Assembly: GCF_026571515.1 (NCBI RefSeq)
Contig: NW_026854483.1
Coordinates: forward strand, 1-64,000
Source of the DNA: Ruditapes philippinarum
Lineage: Eukaryota
DNA length: 64,000 bases
Reading direction: 5' to 3'
Position 1 is the first letter of the stretch. Each line of letters starts with the position of its first letter. Below, in pieces: positions 35,101-63,200 of the stretch. Made by a program: the position numbers.

Positions 35101-38100
35101 CGTTACAGGTTATATTTTGTACCCATCCAGAAAAAGTAAAATATGACAGTTTTGGCCATAATTTAAGAATTATTATTCTTAAAATGTCACTTTACATTAT
35201 GTGAAGTAATGTTTCGAGATGACCCCCTGATTTCAAGCTAAAAAATATCCCAAGGAGATGGAGCAGTCTTCAAGATTATAATTTACTTTAGCATTGGCTA
35301 CAATAGACATAGCAAGACCTACATAATAATGTAAAAAAAGCTCCAACAAGAGTTTAAACAAGATGTACATGTATACAACAGTAAAAAGTCCCACTGTCAC
35401 ATATATAACATACAAACAAGTGTTAAAAATTCAAAAAATTCGTCAAATAATCTTTTACATTATAAACACGTTAAAAATATCTTGGGTTAAAATCTGAACA
35501 CATTTTCACTAAGAATAATCTTTGTATCAAAAATATAACATTAACAATAAATTTCACAAAATCTTGACAATTGCACATTTTCTATAATAATTTAGTAACA
35601 TATTTGGGTCCGACATATTGTAGTTAACTTTATAATTTAGTATCTTAGAGAAAATGCTTTCAATTGTATAAAAAACAATTCAAAGCAAAATATACTACAC
35701 ATAATTGTTGTGAATGTAACTTTGTTCTTACTTTTTCAGTAATTTTCGTGTTTTTTTTTCCATTTCACTAAATACTATTCAATGTATTTGAAAAAAACTT
35801 TTCTAAATATGAGAATAAAATTGAAATATGTGATTCAATAACATAATACAATGTGTAATCTTTCACAATATTCAAGTATATGATTATTTTATATCAACTC
35901 AATGCCTTGCTCAAGAACATCTTGCAAAGCATCTTGACAGTTCAAGTTCTTTACCATCCATTATTTTGCATCGTATCTGAGCACTTTCATTCAATTCAGC
36001 CCGTACACTGTTTACTAATTGTATTTAAAATGTAACTCATTACAAAACATATCAGACAACACATCACCTCATCTGATCATCTGTTGGAATGATCAAGAAT
36101 TAACTTTTTCATTAGTTGAGATCTCCCCTGGGTCGTGCAGGACAATGGCGCAATGTATGAGCCCCATCTCCTGTTGCTCCACAGATTGGACATGTATACT
36201 TTCTGAGAATTGGGCAAATCACCTTCCCCCATGAATCCTTGACAACATGTGTTGTGTAAAATTCTCTTCGCTCACGGTTTCTCTTGCAGAATGCACAGAA
36301 TTTCCCTTCATCAAGGGAGCGGGAATTACGGTATCCACCATTCTCAGCATAGGAAACACCTGAATTTCCTTGCTGCATCAATTTGTTCAGCAGAAAAGCA
36401 ACATGACTAATAGATTCTGGGTATTCCACATTAAGTCCATTTGAATATCGAGGGTACACTGGAGATGTATTCCTTTCTTCATCATGTGCTTGATCTAAAC
36501 AACTATTTCCCAACATCTCATTAAAGACAGTGTCTACAGAAGCATCACTGCTGCCAAAGAATCCAGTACTAGAATAACTTGAAGAAGTATGCATGTTTCC
36601 ATTCCATACAGTTGATGTGCTCTGTAAACCTCTTGTATCAATGTCATTTGGCTGGTGTGCAATATGGCCTCTTATTTCATCGTTCATATCAATCCATACT
36701 CCATTGTCGCTGCCCCAAATTCCATCACTACTTTTTGAAGCAACAGTTGAAGACTTGTAGTCCCAAACTTTTCCTGTAGTTGACACATTGCCAGTTGCCT
36801 GTGCATTCTGGTCATTCACATCAACATTTTTCCTTTGTGTATTAATGTCAGTAAGAAACGGAGGTGAAGAATTAACAGAATCTCTACGACCTAAAACAGG
36901 CCTGGCACAAAGAAGTTCATCTGAACCTGAATAAGATGTCCACTGCTCTGATGAATCTAAAAAATATCAAATACAGATTTTTTCATTTTATAACTACAGT
37001 CTGAGTCACCTTAAAAGCATATCACTATATGTTTGCTTTGGAAGTCACTGGTAACAATGCTATGAAAATTTACTGTTTGCTATGAAAAGTCAATGGCTGC
37101 TATGAAGTCACTGCATGCTATGAAACTAAGCTTTAGTTGTTGAAGATTTAGAGAAGAATATTTTTAAGTTTTTACTATATAAATGAAAGGAAAATCAATG
37201 TTACCCAGGATGGGGCCAATTTTGACCACTATATTATTTTTTCCCTCATGTTTTCGTATAATAATATCTATCAATTTGTTGTTGCATTGTGATATTGCTA
37301 AATGTTATTCATGTATATTAAAATCGAAAGTTGGATTACTTCTAAAAATATTCTGATTTGATCTGCCAATTCCTTTTTTTTATTGCAATTTTTAACATGT
37401 AAACATGAAAGGACAAAATGCCATGACAAATGCTCAACTCTCCTAATTATGTTGTCAAGATGCAACTTTTAAGGCCAAATAAAAACAAGAGCACTGCTAG
37501 GCGGAGCATTATATGCACAAAGGAGTTTTTTTTGTTAGTAAGGATAAAACATTTGTAGGACATTGGAATTAAATACAGTATTACCTCCTTCAAAAAGCAA
37601 TCCTCCTTTATAGCTGAAGAACCTTCATATATATATATGTTTTCAAAGCAACAGCATCAAGTTGTAGTTATGCTTCAGAGACAACAACTTTCAGTGTAAA
37701 GATCATTGTGACCCTGACCTTTGACCTTATGACCCTAAAATCAATAGGGGTCATGTATTGGACATGGCTGTTCATCCTATAAACTTTTACAGCGTAGGTC
37801 GATTAATACTTAAGTTATTGAGAGAAAAGTTATTGAGAGAAACTGTTTTCAGTTTTAAGGTAATAGTGACCTTGACCTTTGACCTTGTGACCCAAAAATC
37901 GATAGGGGTCTTCTGCCTAATATGGACAATCATCCTATGAAGTTTGAATACTGTGGGCCAAATGGAACTTAAGTTATGCTCTGGAAACTGTTTTCAGTTT
38001 TAAGGTAATAGTGACCTTGACCTTTGACCTTGTGACCCCAAAATTAAATGGGGTCTTCTTCATAATATAGACAATCATCCTATGAAGTTTGAAGACTGTG

Positions 38101-60200: not shown

Positions 60201-63200
60201 GGGTATCATGGGGTGTCTTGGGGTAAATAGACCGACCGATATTTCTGTCCCAGAGTAGTCTTGGGGTAAATAGACCGACCCATTTTAGTGTATTATAGTG
60301 ATATGGAATCAGAGATGAATTTTGTTTCTTTGGTAAATGCAAGTTATATCATAATATGTATCAGCATAAAGATGAACTAAAAAGAGAACAGATGCTATTC
60401 TAAATGTTCATGAATTAAAAATCAAAAAATCTTTTTTTCCCACTGCCTCAAACCTTAGCTTTTTTTGGATAAAAAAATGGTAAACTGAAAGATAAAAAAT
60501 AACTTAATAATGTTAAAAAGTATGTTAAATGCTTATTACATGAAGAAAATACAGCTGAATGTGCAATTATTTGTCATAAAACGAGCAAAATATAAAAAAA
60601 AGTAGTATTTTGATTTCAATACTTAATAACTATAGCTGTACAGCAACAGAAGCAAAATATTGTTCAGCTAATTGGCATGAGTAACTTTTTGGAAACTAAG
60701 TAAAAATAAAGCTTTCAAGAAATAAAAATAAAAGCATTTCTGGGCCATAATGGGCCTTTAAGCTTTTATAAGTTATGTGGACAAAAAATGCAAGAGTGGG
60801 ACTGGGTGACAAATGTCCATACAGTATACATAATACTGTAATATACTAGGAATATTAATTTGCACAACATACTGTATAAAACATAATAAATGTCAATAAT
60901 CTTGCTTATAATGATGTTGGTGCTTACAAAGACTTAAATTAACGAAAATATTGTGCAAATTTTCATGCCAATGGATAGACATATCAATTTTAACTTTTTG
61001 AACAAATACTATAATTTAAGCTTTGTGTCAAGAAAAGATTCCATGTCAAATTCTTTAATCCTATCAAATTGATTTTTCACTGAAAAAAGAAATAAAAAAT
61101 TATGTAACCACAACTTCATACTGTATTTTTGGATATGTCAAATAAAATTTAAATTAAGCGACACAAATCTGCTTGAATATGTTTTCATAATTTGCGAGGC
61201 ATTTCGCTTAAAATGAAAAAAAAACAAAAAAAACTGCAAAAATTCTCCTTTAATGCCTACAGAACTAATAAATTAAATCAAACCTCCTCTTGGAATTTCC
61301 AGCTCGAAGTAGTCTTTAAAAGGGTCAAAACAATCCATCGTGTGTACGTGTCAACTAGGCAGAATCTCAGCAGAGACTGATGTTGCGGAAGATCCGACCT
61401 GGCCAAATCCATTCTCAAAAAGGGCAAAAAGAGAAAAGTTTAACAAAATCTAAATTCAAACGCAAAATATTTGTTGCTTTCCCTCTCGGTTTTTTAAAAA
61501 TAATATTTTAGAACTTGATGATTCCGAACAGTGAAAAAAATGCTAAAATCAAGTTTAAATATGTCACACCTCCTAGACTTCGAAATGGAACAGTCCGTTT
61601 ACGCGCGGGAAAATCAACATCAAACGAGTTGTCGGCGGCCTTTGATGTAAGTTGGGGTTGCATCGGGCATCACTGGAACAAACGCGGGAAAGTCTGATTT
61701 CTTTGTTATTTATCACTTTTGCGAGTTTAGGGAAGAAAAATAAAATGTTTTTAAAAAGAATGCAAGTCACAATTTAATAATTAAATGAAGTCGTATTTGA
61801 GTGATTATTATGTTTATAGAAAAATTAAAATAGGATAAATAGGATGTAAAGTCGTCTTAGAAAAATCAGATTTCCCAGAGTTGATACATGCAATGTAAAT
61901 CAATCGTTTTTTCCCTTAAAAAATGTAATCTTATGAGACACAAAAAGTGTCGTGCAAAAGTCCTACAGTACATGTTGACCAAACAAAACTTTTTCGTGAC
62001 CATTGACTACATGGTCAGGGGAATAAAATGCAATAATCTAATTATGACATGATGAATAATGATGTTAAGAAAAAATCTTAAAGAACAAACAATTTTCATT
62101 TAGTAAGTACAGAACAAATTGCAATTAATCTACGCAACGCCAGGGGAGGTTACTAAAATGTTTCATCACAGAAAAGAACTTTTCACGGTGCACCGTCATC
62201 TTCTGAAAATATAATTTTTGTGGGTGTTTCGCAGGTACGTAATATATTTATGGTTTTCCAAGCATATAGTTATTGTCATTCACTTACTGCAACATATATG
62301 ATAAATTGAAAGTATATATTTGCACAAAATATAAACGGTATTTGTTTTCTTTAATACCTTAACGGGACAAAGTCAAGGAAATATTTGTATTGGTTCTTTA
62401 TCTTACATCTGTTTCAACAGGTCTAGGATTTCATGATATTTATGGACTGTCAGTAAATTTATGGATAGTCTATAAATTTAAAGATTTTTCAGTCCATAAA
62501 TTCACAGACACTTGGGGTTTGGAGCTCAAAACGCCTTTAAAATCCAAATAAAATGCATATTTGTCAATCCCAGCACATGTACTGATCATATATATCAAAA
62601 AAACTTAATATAAGCCGTTTTGAAAAAAAATCATATTTCAACATCTATAATAATACGTGTATTATTATAGTTGTTGAAATATGATTTTGTTTCAAAACGG
62701 CATATATTAAGTTTTTTTGATATATATAATCAGTACATGTCCTGGGATTGACAAATATGCATTATATTTGGATTTTAAAGGCGTTTTGAGCTCCAAACCC
62801 CAAGTATCTGTGCATAAATTTACAGATCCTCAATGTTAAATTTGCTGTTTTTAGTTTTATACTAAAATCCGCAGCTTAAAACAAGTTGTTATATTGATTG
62901 CTTCTATTAACAAAGGTAGTGAGAAAAGTTTCATCTTTGTATGATGACTGGGTTTGAAATTTTTGTTAAAAGTGAAAATTGAAAGTCATCAAATTGTTCT
63001 GAATCTTATCATACTGTTACATTTAATCATATAATCAGTAAATTTATTCTTATTAAACTGCGGTTTTTAATTTTAATACAACTTATACTCTTTTCGCATT
63101 TAATGTCTATAAATTTACAGATAGAAAAATCTGTAAAATTATAGATGGTCCATAAATTTACAGACTGTCCGTAAATATCATGAAATCCTAGACCTGTTCA

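What the first reader, a model, noticed from the sequence alone, without database searches (positions are those of the whole stretch)
37473..60281. Russian-doll nest of at least six transposon groups inside the intron of a germline gene
Seen from TIR/TSD pairs: Harbinger MITE > HINE > HINE; HINE > hAT5; Mutator-like shell > HINE > (pogo > Kolobok; Harbinger MITE; hAT MITE); shell > hAT5 derivative. TE density is far higher than in the consortin or PLD3 introns. On the nanos pre-mRNA the hAT and Kolobok transposase sequences are antisense. Inference: germline-open chromatin attracts insertions, and the intron could act as a genic piRNA/endo-siRNA source (transposon trap) co-expressed with nanos.
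Basis: partly seen in the sequence, partly recalled or inferred. Interest (0 to 1): 0.68.

Follow-up and report, generated by a model that had tools for sequence, protein, structure and literature searches.

The report
Nested transposons inside clam nanos introns
The two introns of a Manila clam nanos gene are about 80-90% decayed, mostly non-autonomous DNA transposons inserted into one another, which looks like ordinary junk build-up in a transposon-rich genome and not a demonstrated small-RNA source.

Summary
The window is Ruditapes philippinarum. The gene is LOC132740241, a nanos-domain gene on the minus strand.

Both outer coordinates (37473 and 60281) are real element ends. I confirmed these nests:
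- Harbinger-type MITE > HINE > HINE
- HINE > hAT5
- a 10.6-kb TIR "shell" > HINE > (Harbinger MITE, hAT-like MITE)
- shell > hAT5 deletion derivative

The evidence is TIRs, TSDs and, best of all, paralogous empty sites inside the window.

Four corrections:
- The span is two introns, not one. A coding exon (40703-40786) lies inside it.
- "Kolobok" is wrong. Its coding remnants are a DDE_Tnp_4/HTH_Tnp_4 (PIF/Harbinger-ISL2EU-Spy type) transposase.
- "pogo" is only an 80-residue C-terminal fragment. I found no ends, so its nesting is unproven.
- "Mutator-like" rests only on a 7-of-9 nine-base TSD.

Transposons cover 79-89% of the introns, against 39.7% genome-wide. The comparison introns are short, so that contrast is confounded.

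The piRNA-trap idea is untested here. Orientations are mixed, and published surveys find no endo-siRNAs in molluscs. This is most likely passive accumulation.

The parts
61284..61338 (-). nanos coding exon 1 (55 nt, starts at the ATG)
   Evidence: tblastn of P0001 residues 1-21. GT donor read from the sequence printed. The peptide is conserved in the Mercenaria protein P0002.
40787..61283 (-). nanos intron 1 (20,497 bp, GT..AG)
   Evidence: Splice sites read. Holds X1, Z, Y+hAT5 and the shell. Curated TE cover is 79-91%.
   Evidence: 100% tblastn match to P0001 residues 19-46. AG acceptor and GT donor. Only weak conservation in Mercenaria.
36957..40702 (-). nanos intron 2 (3,746 bp, GT..AG)
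   Evidence: 81% of it is the MITE>HINE>HINE nest.
36112..36956 (-). nanos coding exon 3 with the zf-nanos domain
   Evidence: Pfam PF05741, 85.4 bits. 100% identity to R. philippinarum LOC132740241.
37473..40510 (.). PIF/Harbinger-type MITE (about 675 bp without its inserts), TSD TAA/TAA, roughly 34-nt TIR whose left arm is split
   Evidence: Left TIR pieces 37473-37480 and 39843-39868; right TIR 40477-40510.
37481..39842 (-). HINE-A: 145-bp central repeats at 37674-38570, GTCY-type microsatellite, 5' stem at 39821-39839, 3' end ...CTCTTGTTTTT
   Evidence: TRF. Sequence reading.
38651..39684 (-). HINE E2 nested in HINE-A: 165-bp repeats x4.4, subTIR plus IR, GTCY microsatellite, 3' subTIR plus palindrome
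   Evidence: Ends defined by the paralog at 28150-28493, about 91% identical.
41505..43740 (.). X1: two HINE copies head to head. X1a is 41505-42356 (inverted). X1b is 42366-~43740. They meet at one microsatellite.
   Evidence: Arms 77.5% identical. Sequence. 3' subTIR GTAGGGGACT at 43696. The 3' end is approximate.
43849..44460 (.).
   Evidence: Copies at 127-533 (93% identical, TTAA on both sides) and about 27463-28090 (79%).
44491..49655 (-). HINE Y: 161-bp repeats x5 at 48795-49596, microsatellite 49602-49617, eroded 5' stem; host of the hAT5 copy
   Evidence: Left end fixed by HINE W (31281-31241). TRF.. The 5' end is approximate.
44563..48497 (+). hAT5 element, 3,935 bp. The transposase is decayed: an in-frame stop at 46835-46837 and frame changes. 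Antisense to nanos.
   Evidence: TIR and 5-bp TSD TTAGT. Dimer_Tnp_hAT, with weaker zf-C17orf113, DUF659 and DUF4371 matches. ORF list.
49679..60281 (.). 'Shell': TIR element of 10,603 bp. Each TIR is a 25-nt terminal motif plus a (GTCTTGGGGTA)n minisatellite: 64 nt on the left, 183 nt on the right. 9-bp TSD matching 7 of 9.
   Evidence: No MULE transposase was found inside.
50228..50458 (-). pogo/Tigger transposase C-terminal fragment (aligns to 80 residues of the homolog); no ends found
   Evidence: 56% identity to P0040, which carries DDE_1 and HTH_Tnp_Tc5. No other pogo coding sequence in the window.
50472..54637 (+). 35-nt inverted ends, 91% complementary. Holds the C-terminal ~40% of a DDE_Tnp_4 plus SWIM-type transposase at 51926-53406. 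Antisense to nanos.
56080..58235 (-). HINE X2: 5' stem 58202-58231, GTCY microsatellite, 163-bp repeats; 3'-truncated or interrupted at 56080
   Evidence: 84-95% identical to X1..
56119..56610 (.). PIF/Harbinger-type MITE, 492 bp, 34-nt TIR starting GGCC, TSD TAA
   Evidence: The empty site in X1 holds a single TTA.
56708..57157 (.). hAT-like MITE, 450 bp, 15-nt TIR, 8-bp TSD AACTAACG/AACTAATG
   Evidence: The empty site in X1 has one copy of the target. Chance of 7 of 8 matching is 0.001.
58540..59773 (-). hAT5 internal-deletion derivative, 1,234 bp, TSD TATGT
   Evidence: 83-90% identical to the 5' 1.16 kb and the 3' 148 bp of the hAT5 copy.

Best explanation
This is a passive graveyard of transposons in the two introns of a clam nanos gene.

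Over a long period, non-autonomous or decayed class II elements inserted into the introns and then into one another. They include Helentron-type HINEs, hAT5 and a hAT-like MITE, PIF/Harbinger-type MITEs and one DDE_Tnp_4 element, a pogo fragment, a TTAA-type MITE and a 9-bp-TSD TIR element.

An insertion into an existing transposon, away from splice sites, costs the host nothing. Such insertions are therefore kept, and the intron grows to 20.5 kb. The copies are old and none can move by itself. No function is needed to explain the structure.

Shown: the anatomy, the nesting order, the decay of the coding parts and the TE-free margins next to the exons.
Inferred: neutrality and the absence of function.
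For: - Nesting is shown by TSDs, a TIR that is restored once the insert is set aside, and two empty sites in a paralog.
- All coding remnants are broken. The hAT frame has an in-frame stop and frame changes. The DDE_Tnp_4 element keeps only residues ~412-671 of ~680. The pogo fragment aligns to only 80 residues of the 360-residue homolog P0040.
- Paralogous copies differ by 5-23%, so the insertions are not recent.
- The element classes match the genome's dominant classes: MITEs 9.2%, rolling-circle 6.1%, DNA 3.5%, total 39.7% (PMC9803972 passage). HINEs are reported to integrate often into other repeats (PMC7492417 passage).
- No reverse-transcriptase family turned up in the Pfam scans of the ORFs sent: 64 chosen from the 118 of 50 aa or more in 36970-61280, and 101 of the 131 of 28 aa or more in 49750-56650.
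- Orientations are mixed: 2 of 4 transposase pieces are antisense and 5 of 6 HINEs are sense.
- Stretches without recognised elements border every splice site: 516, 192, 718 and 1,002 bp. This is what selection on splicing would leave.
- HINEs and MITEs also occur elsewhere in the window, at 127-533, 1280-2081, 12073-12316, 12928-13417, 27463-28493 and 30.8-31.3 kb.
Against: - TE cover of 79-89% is about twice the genome mean.
- The intra-window repeat proxy is 2.7 times that of the left 36 kb.
- All three transposase remnants in the window lie in this one intron: 0 of 132 ORFs of 55 aa or more outside it hit a TE family.
- An insertion bias or a function is therefore not excluded.
- I could not compare with other long introns of this genome, and no expression or small-RNA data were available.
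Confidence: 0.8

Rival explanations
1. Genic piRNA source, the reader's 'transposon trap'. The nanos pre-mRNA is made in germ cells, and its TE-filled introns are processed into piRNAs that silence the matching families.
For: - nanos is a specific germ-cell marker in the oyster (PMC12551290 passages).
- Molluscs have active piRNA pathways, and Lymnaea clusters are enriched in hAT5 and other DNA transposons (PMC6128900 passage).
- The hAT and DDE_Tnp_4 coding remnants are antisense to the gene.
- TE cover is 79-89%.
Against: - No small-RNA data were available.
- Clusters cover only 0.27% of the Lymnaea genome, and mollusc clusters are reported to favour young, low-divergence copies. The copies here are 5-23% diverged and decayed.
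- There is no strand bias: 2 of 4 coding pieces are antisense and 5 of 6 HINEs are sense.
- Expression of this paralog in clam germ cells was not tested.
Confidence: 0.06
2. Double-stranded RNA from the intron. Long inverted copies in intron 1 pair within the pre-mRNA and feed endo-siRNA production or RNA editing, or slow splicing and so tune nanos output.
For: Inverted arms within one transcript:
- 215 nt at 95% complementarity (42768-42982 with 57635-57849)
- 143 nt at 90% (44563-44705 with 59631-59773)
- several more
- the X1a/X1b palindrome
Against: - A survey of 32 molluscs found no evidence of endo-siRNAs and no siRNA-type Dicer or Argonaute (PMC12479628 passages).
- The arms lie 13-15 kb apart.
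- Such inverted pairs arise by chance wherever one family inserts twice.
- No editing or splicing data were available.
Confidence: 0.04
3. Insertion bias rather than retention. DNA transposons land preferentially in chromatin that is open in germ cells, so a germline gene gathers more of them.
For: - Every heritable insertion must occur in the germline.
- Every element here that could be classed is class II or rolling-circle.
- The only transposase remnants in the 64 kb are in this intron.
- A preference of cut-and-paste elements for open chromatin is established for several families; I recall this and read no paper on it.
Against: - The genome's repeats are mostly class II and rolling-circle anyway.
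- Most insertions went into earlier transposons, which fits tolerance as well as targeting.
- The neighbouring genes have short introns, so the local contrast says little.
Confidence: 0.15
4. Structural rival: the 'shell' is not one element. It is two unrelated copies, or fragments, of a short minisatellite-bearing foldback family that happen to face each other.
For: - A third copy of the terminal motif lies inside, at 58348-58412, within a small foldback at 58297-58463.
- The right end carries the motif twice.
- Similarity between the two ends stops after about 64 nt.
- No transposase of its own was found.
Against: - The 9-bp flanks at exactly the outer ends match 7 of 9 (chance 0.0035 per trial).
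- The inner motif copy paired with 60281 shows no TSD.
Confidence: 0.3

Closest known systems
Cg_HINE / pearl / DINE-1-like non-autonomous Helentrons (PMC7492417, PMC4067079; passages read)
   Same: - 5' subTIR with a complementary IR a few bases away
- GTCY-type microsatellite
- A short array of 145-165-bp satellite-like repeats
- 3' subTIR followed by a palindrome
- T-rich termini and frequent insertion into other repeats
   Different: - Different species and sequences.
- One pair (X1) is joined head to head at the microsatellite.
- E2 is flanked by an 8-nt direct repeat, although Helentrons make no TSD.
- No autonomous partner is present in the window.
hAT5 group of hAT transposons (5-bp TSD; PMC12730594 passage citing Kapitonov and Jurka 2007)
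   Same: hAT dimerisation domain, a short TIR, and 5-bp TSDs in 2 of 2 copies.
   Different: The transposase is decayed. Phylogenetic placement within the hAT5 clade was not done.
Spy / ISL2EU / PIF-Harbinger assemblage (PMC4122938, passages read)
   Same: - The element at 50472-54637 encodes a DDE_Tnp_4-type transposase.
- Full-length relatives carry an N-terminal HTH.
- The ends read AAA|...|TTT with no TSD, as Spy does.
   Different: - The Spy terminal motif GGANNNNG is not present.
- Relatives carry a C-terminal SWIM-type finger, which that paper does not describe.
- There is no 3-bp TWA TSD (Harbinger) and no 2-bp TSD (ISL2EU).
Uni-strand piRNA clusters such as Drosophila flamenco, and genic piRNA sources (recalled; mollusc clusters from PMC6128900)
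   Same: A dense nest of transposon fragments within one transcription unit of a presumed germline gene.
   Different: - There is no antisense bias.
- The copies are old.
- No small-RNA evidence exists here.
- The nest lies in spliced introns of a protein-coding gene.

Membership tests
HINE (non-autonomous Helentron) | 5' subTIR with a nearby complementary IR | tested here: met
   - E2: AGCTCACCTGTCAC paired with GTGACAGGGTGAGCT.
- X2: AGTCCCCTAC paired with GTAGGGGACT.
- HINE-A: stem at 39821-39839.
- Y: eroded.
HINE (non-autonomous Helentron) | Microsatellite plus central satellite-like tandem repeats (140-180 bp) | tested here: met
   Arrays of 145, 165, 163, 161 and 163 bp. GTCY-type runs sit next to each.
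HINE (non-autonomous Helentron) | 3' subTIR followed by a palindrome; no TSD; T-rich target | tested here: met
   - E2 and its paralog end in the palindrome GGGCCATCATGGCCC followed by ...CTCTTGTTTT.
- W has GTGGGGGCAT followed by a hairpin.
- X1b has its 3' subTIR at 43696.
- X2 lacks its 3' part.
hAT5 | hAT transposase | tested here: met
   Dimer_Tnp_hAT E=1.3e-09, 38.1 bits against a cut-off of 21.4. DUF659 and DUF4371 are weak.
hAT5 | 5-bp target site duplication | tested here: met
   2 of 2 copies are perfect.
PIF/Harbinger MITE | 3-bp TWA TSD with TIRs | tested here: met
   - 56119-56610: TAA/TAA, 34-nt TIR, and the empty site in X1.
- 37473-40510: TAA/TAA, with the split TIR restored once the insert is set aside.
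- TWAGGCC alone is not rare: 9 hits against 7.2 expected.
Kolobok | TTAA TSD and 5'-RR..YY-3' termini (PMC9587614 passage) | tested here: inconclusive
   TTAA on the left and TTGA on the right (3 of 4). The termini AG...CT fit.
Kolobok | Kolobok-type transposase (its RNase H-like domain has no Pfam match, PMC5751038 passage) | tested here: not met
   The remnants match proteins carrying DDE_Tnp_4, DDE_Tnp_1 and HTH_Tnp_4. That Pfam signature is listed for PIF/Harbinger.
Spy | Insertion between AAA and TTT without a TSD | tested here: inconclusive
   The flanks read AAA|GAGC...TCTC|TTT. But AAA and TTT are complementary and could equally be part of the TIR. No empty site was available.
Spy | Terminal motif GGANNNNG | tested here: not met
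   The element starts GAGCTAGG after the AAA.
pogo/Tigger | DDE_1 transposase with an HTH | tested here: inconclusive
   Only the C-terminal tail is present, aligning to residues 280-359 of P0040. No DDE_1 or HTH sequence is found anywhere in the window.
pogo/Tigger | TIRs flanked by a TA TSD | tested here: not met
   1 TA-flanked pair with 12 or more of 16 matches, against 1.9 in shuffles. No convincing inverted pair in a direct search.
Mutator-like (MULE) | 9-10-bp TSD and long TIRs | tested here: inconclusive
   9-bp flanks match 7 of 9. The TIR is a 25-nt motif plus a minisatellite, 64 nt against 183 nt.
Mutator-like (MULE) | MULE transposase or relationship to an autonomous MULE | tested here: not met
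   No MULE or Transposase_mut match among the 165 ORFs scanned. A non-autonomous copy need not have one.
piRNA cluster / transposon trap | Dense, uniquely mapping 24-31-nt 1U small RNAs | not testable with these tools
   No read data could be reached.
piRNA cluster / transposon trap | Strand bias of the TEs relative to transcription | tested here: not met
   2 of 4 coding pieces are antisense. 5 of 6 HINEs are sense.

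The most novel reading that the evidence does not exclude
The TE-packed introns of a germline nanos gene are co-opted as a genic, splicing-coupled piRNA precursor. Each new insertion into the nest would then immunise the clam germline against that family.
Probability: 0.05. Interest if true: 0.55.

Novelty: new member of a known kind. Interest (0 to 1): 0.2.

Why it matters
As it stands this is an ordinary, well-resolved example of nested class II and rolling-circle transposons in a bivalve intron.

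It is useful for three things:
- as a worked locus for curating clam HINE, hAT5 and PIF-type families;
- as a caution that TSD and terminus reading alone mislabelled one element;
- as a reminder that long introns are long because of such nests.

It would matter more only if small RNAs showed the introns to be a germline piRNA source.

Tried and rejected
- A strict TIR+TSD finder (perfect 8-mer ends) gave 25 pairs with a TSD of 5 bp or more, against 6.4 in Markov shuffles. Only the two hAT5 pairs and one internal HINE match were meaningful. It found no TA, TWA or TTAA pairs at my thresholds because real TIR ends carry mismatches.
- The 3' remainder of HINE X2 beyond 56080. The subTIR motif has 5 hits, none in 49.7-56.1 kb. 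X1 43600-43840 matches nothing else. The 24-nt sequence that abuts X2 has no inverted partner within 3 mismatches.
- pogo ends. See; tblastn with P0040 found only the tail.
- Pfam scans of small ORFs in 49.75-56.65 kb gave no transposase beyond those named: 101 of the 131 ORFs of 28 aa or more (the other 30 had mostly gone).
- Rfam at gathering thresholds and ARAGORN gave 0 hits in the window.
- BLASTP of the exon-2 peptide against Mercenaria P0002 gave no significant match (E=12). A four-protein alignment shows only a short C..NEES..M motif.
- Reading 37473 as a HINE end rather than a MITE end was rejected once the split TIR was seen.
- An assembly artefact for the X1 palindrome was rejected because its arms are only 77.5% identical.
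- The spliced nanos model was searched exon by exon only. No search was made with a joined coding sequence.
- Not checked: other copies of these families elsewhere in the clam genome.
- Not checked: supplementary tables of the HINE, Spy, KolobokP and clam-genome papers. These are closed. They may hold termini lists and TE tables that bear on the labels.

Full report
WHERE WE ARE

The window has no N and is 32% G+C. The 284-codon frame at 36112-36966 (minus strand) carries a zf-nanos domain (85.4 bits). It is 100% identical to the 327-residue protein 'LOC132740241 [Ruditapes philippinarum]'. The window is therefore Manila clam, not human.

Exon-by-exon tblastn places the missing 46 N-terminal residues in two further exons. 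Residues 1-21 lie at 61338-61276 and residues 19-46 at 40787-40704, the latter a 100% match. From the sequences printed the boundaries are:
- exon 1: 61338-61284
- intron 1: 40787-61283
- exon 2: 40786-40703
- intron 2: 36957-40702
- exon 3: 36956-36112

Both introns are GT..AG. The model was searched exon by exon only. No search used a joined coding sequence.

It covers two introns and includes a coding exon. The exon-1 peptide is conserved in the Mercenaria homolog. The exon-2 peptide is conserved only weakly (BLASTP E=12; a short C..NEES..M motif).

THE ANATOMY, INTRON 2

- At 37470-37480 the sequence reads TAA then GGCCAAAT. At 40477-40513 it reads a 34-nt arm ending GGCC, then TAA.
- The left arm looks only 8 nt long. 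The reason is that a HINE sits at 37481-39842, and directly after it (39843-39868) the arm resumes. The two pieces together match the right arm with one gap and one mismatch.
- This is a PIF/Harbinger-type MITE with a TAA TSD, and the insert is truly inside it. TWAGGCC by itself is not rare (9 hits against 7.2 expected). The evidence is the restored TIR.
- The insert, HINE-A, has the published HINE layout (passages in PMC7492417 and PMC4067079): a 5' stem, a GTCY-type microsatellite, 145-bp tandem repeats and a 3' end of ...CTCTTGTTTTT.
- Inside HINE-A lies a second HINE, E2 (38651-39684), with 165-bp repeats. Its two ends are fixed exactly by a paralog at 28150-28493. The paralog shares the head, the tail, the subTIR plus IR, the microsatellite and the 3' palindrome.

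THE ANATOMY, INTRON 1

hAT5 and its derivative
- The motif CAGGGTTCTC occurs four times in 64 kb against 0.02 expected. The four sites are exactly the two ends of 44563-48497 and of 58540-59773.
- Both elements have perfect 5-bp TSDs. That is the defining feature of hAT5 (PMC12730594 passage).
- The long copy holds hAT domains on the + strand. It has an in-frame stop at 46835-46837 and frame changes.
- The short copy keeps 1.16 kb of the 5' part and 148 bp of the 3' part, at 83-90% identity.

HINE Y, the host of the long hAT5 copy
- Its left end, at 44491, is set by homology to HINE W at 31281-31241. W is a textbook HINE.
- To the right of the hAT5 copy come five 161-bp repeats, the microsatellite and an eroded 5' stem, ending near 49655.

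HINE X2 and its two MITEs
- X2 (56080-~58235, minus strand) has a clean 5' stem and microsatellite. It is 84-95% identical to X1 at 42366-43618.
- Comparing the two copies gives two paralogous empty sites.
- X1 has a single TTA where X2 has TAA, a 492-bp MITE with 34-nt GGCC... TIRs, then TAA again.
- X1 has one copy of an 8-mer where X2 has AACTAACG, a 450-bp MITE with 15-nt hAT-like TIRs, then AACTAATG (chance 0.001).

The shell
- 49679 and 60281 carry the same 23-25-nt motif in inverted orientation, followed by a (GTCTTGGGGTA)n minisatellite.
- The outer flanks are GTTTTAGCG and ATTTTAGTG, matching 7 of 9 (chance 0.0035 per trial).
- I accept the shell as the better reading. A third motif copy lies inside it (58348-58412), and it has no transposase of its own. 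So the rival of two facing fragments keeps about 0.3.
- 'Mutator-like' rests on TSD length alone.

The 'Kolobok' element
- The element bounded by 35-nt inverted ends at 50472-50506 and 54603-54637 was called Kolobok. The basis was presumably TTAA on the left, TTGA on the right and AG..CT termini. These fit the published Kolobok rule only 3 of 4 (PMC9587614 passage).
- Its coding remnants (51926-53406, + strand) align to residues ~412-671 of ~680-residue bivalve proteins. Those proteins carry DDE_Tnp_4 and DDE_Tnp_1; some also carry HTH_Tnp_4, and sources name several of them SWIM-type.
- A Pfam-to-superfamily dictionary lists DDE_Tnp_4 for PIF/Harbinger. It states that the Kolobok nuclease domain has no Pfam similarity (PMC5751038 passages). 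The Kolobok label therefore fails.
- The flanks also read AAA|...|TTT without a TSD, which is the Spy pattern (PMC4122938 passages). But the Spy terminal motif is absent and no empty site was available. I file the element only as PIF/Harbinger-ISL2EU-Spy type.

pogo
- The frame at 50228-50458 (minus strand) is 56% identical to the C-terminal 80 residues of P0040, a protein with DDE_1 and HTH_Tnp_Tc5.
- Nothing else of a pogo transposase is in the window. No TA-flanked TIR pair stands out: 1 pair against 1.9 in shuffles.
- The fragment stops within about 15 nt of the neighbouring element's TIR. That fits 'pogo > that element', but the other half of pogo is missing.

'HINE > pogo'
- X2 breaks from X1 at 56080. 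Its expected 3' part (subTIR GTAGGGGACT and the rest) is nowhere downstream.

- A 612-bp MITE with CCC...GGG termini at 43849-44460. Of its two other copies in the window, the one at 127-533 is flanked by TTAA on both sides; the third shows TTAA at its right end only.
- X1 is two HINE copies joined head to head at one microsatellite, with arms 77.5% identical.

HOW MUCH IS TRANSPOSON

- Counting whole nests, 3,038 of 3,746 bp of intron 2 (81%) and 18,616 of 20,497 bp of intron 1 (91%) are transposon.
- Counting only the pieces inside the shell that have direct evidence, intron 1 is 79%.
- The genome-wide figure is 39.7% (MITEs 9.2%, rolling-circle 6.1%, DNA 3.5%; PMC9803972 passage).
- A crude proxy, the share of bases with a BLAST partner elsewhere in the window, gives 38% for the nanos introns against 14% for 1-36111. 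This proxy favours regions that hold two copies of one family.
- Outside the nanos introns, 0 of 132 ORFs of 55 aa or more hit a transposon family. The hits there are three PLDc_3 exons and Dak1.
- The label 'consortin' could not be verified (no Pfam hit).
- HINEs and MITEs do occur in the other parts of the window.

WHAT IT MOST LIKELY IS

This is passive accumulation.
- Every coding remnant is broken.
- Paralogs differ by 5-23%.
- The classes are those that dominate this genome.
- Insertions sit mostly in earlier insertions.
- Stretches of 192-1,002 bp next to each splice site are free of recognised elements.
- Orientation is mixed: the hAT5 copy and the DDE_Tnp_4 element are antisense to nanos, while the hAT5 derivative, the pogo fragment and 5 of 6 HINEs are sense.

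THE FUNCTIONAL IDEA

- The antisense statement is true as written, but it is selective.
- Intron 1 does hold long inverted pairs that would pair in the pre-mRNA, up to 215 nt at 95%.
- A survey of 32 molluscs reports no endo-siRNAs and no siRNA-type Dicer or Argonaute (PMC12479628 passages).
- piRNAs are abundant in molluscs, and Lymnaea clusters are enriched for hAT5 among others. But clusters cover 0.27% of that genome and favour young copies (PMC6128900 passages).
- nanos is a germ-cell marker in the oyster (PMC12551290 passages). Expression of this clam paralog was not examined.
- I put the trap reading at about 5%.

LIMITS

- No eukaryotic DNA collection was open, so no other genomic copies of these families could be compared.
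- Supplementary files of the papers were closed.
- For every paper cited I saw search listings and the passages returned by 'find', not the whole text.
- Rfam and tRNA scans of the window found nothing.

Noticed in passing
It sits 192 bp from the MITE end at 40510. It is only weakly conserved in the Mercenaria homolog.
   Followed up: yes
window 41505-43740: Two HINE copies are joined head to head at a single GTCY microsatellite (centre near 42360). The arms are 77.5% identical and both lack the 5' stem. This looks like an old inverted duplication with its breakpoint in the microsatellite.
   Followed up: partly
window 43849-44460; also 127-533 (-) and ~27463-28090: A MITE family with CCC...GGG termini. 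The copy at 127-533 has TTAA on both sides. The intron copy has TTAA only on its left and abuts a hairpin at 44462-44490. It could be piggyBac-like or Kolobok-like; this is undecided.
   Followed up: partly
window 51926-53406 (+); proteins P0046, P0058, P0074: Bivalves hold a family of ~680-residue transposases with an HTH_Tnp_4 (in some members), DDE_Tnp_4 and a C-terminal CxC...CxH (SWIM-type) finger. That combination is not described for Spy, ISL2EU or Harbinger in the passages I read.
   Followed up: partly
window 58297-58463: A small foldback (62-nt arms, 82% complementary) whose centre repeats the terminal motif of the shell. It may be a miniature member of the same family.
   Followed up: partly
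window 38636-38650 and 39685-39694: HINE E2 is flanked by the direct repeat CACACAAG on both sides, although Helentrons are said to make no TSD. A third copy of the motif lies at 39752.
   Followed up: no
window 30700-31300 (+) and 28150-28493 (+): Two well-preserved HINEs lie outside the nanos gene. W has all the hallmarks: subTIR ATGCCCCCAC paired with GTGGGGGCAT, a hairpin, 152-bp repeats and a GTCY run.
   Followed up: partly
window 41160-41440: A G+C-rich block with a 33-nt inverted repeat (88% complementary) and internal direct repeats, 370 bp from exon 2. Its nature is unknown; it may be a small MITE or SINE.
   Followed up: no
window 22932-23147 and 23566-23784; 2553-2796 and 12073-12316: A 219-nt inverted pair (84%) lies just past the last PLDc_3 exon. 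Separately, a 244-nt repeat matches its partner in both orientations, which suggests a palindromic MITE. Both are likely further MITEs in the neighbouring genes.
   Followed up: no
window 63753-63983 (+): First coding exon of a dihydroxyacetone kinase gene (Dak1 domain, E=1.2e-10). It is divergent from nanos, about 2.4 kb from the nanos start codon.
   Followed up: no
window 56013-56079: The sequence that replaces the 3' part of HINE X2 begins with a hairpin-forming stretch (CTTATAAGACGG...CCGTCTTATAG). It has no inverted partner in the window and is an unidentified element end.
   Followed up: partly
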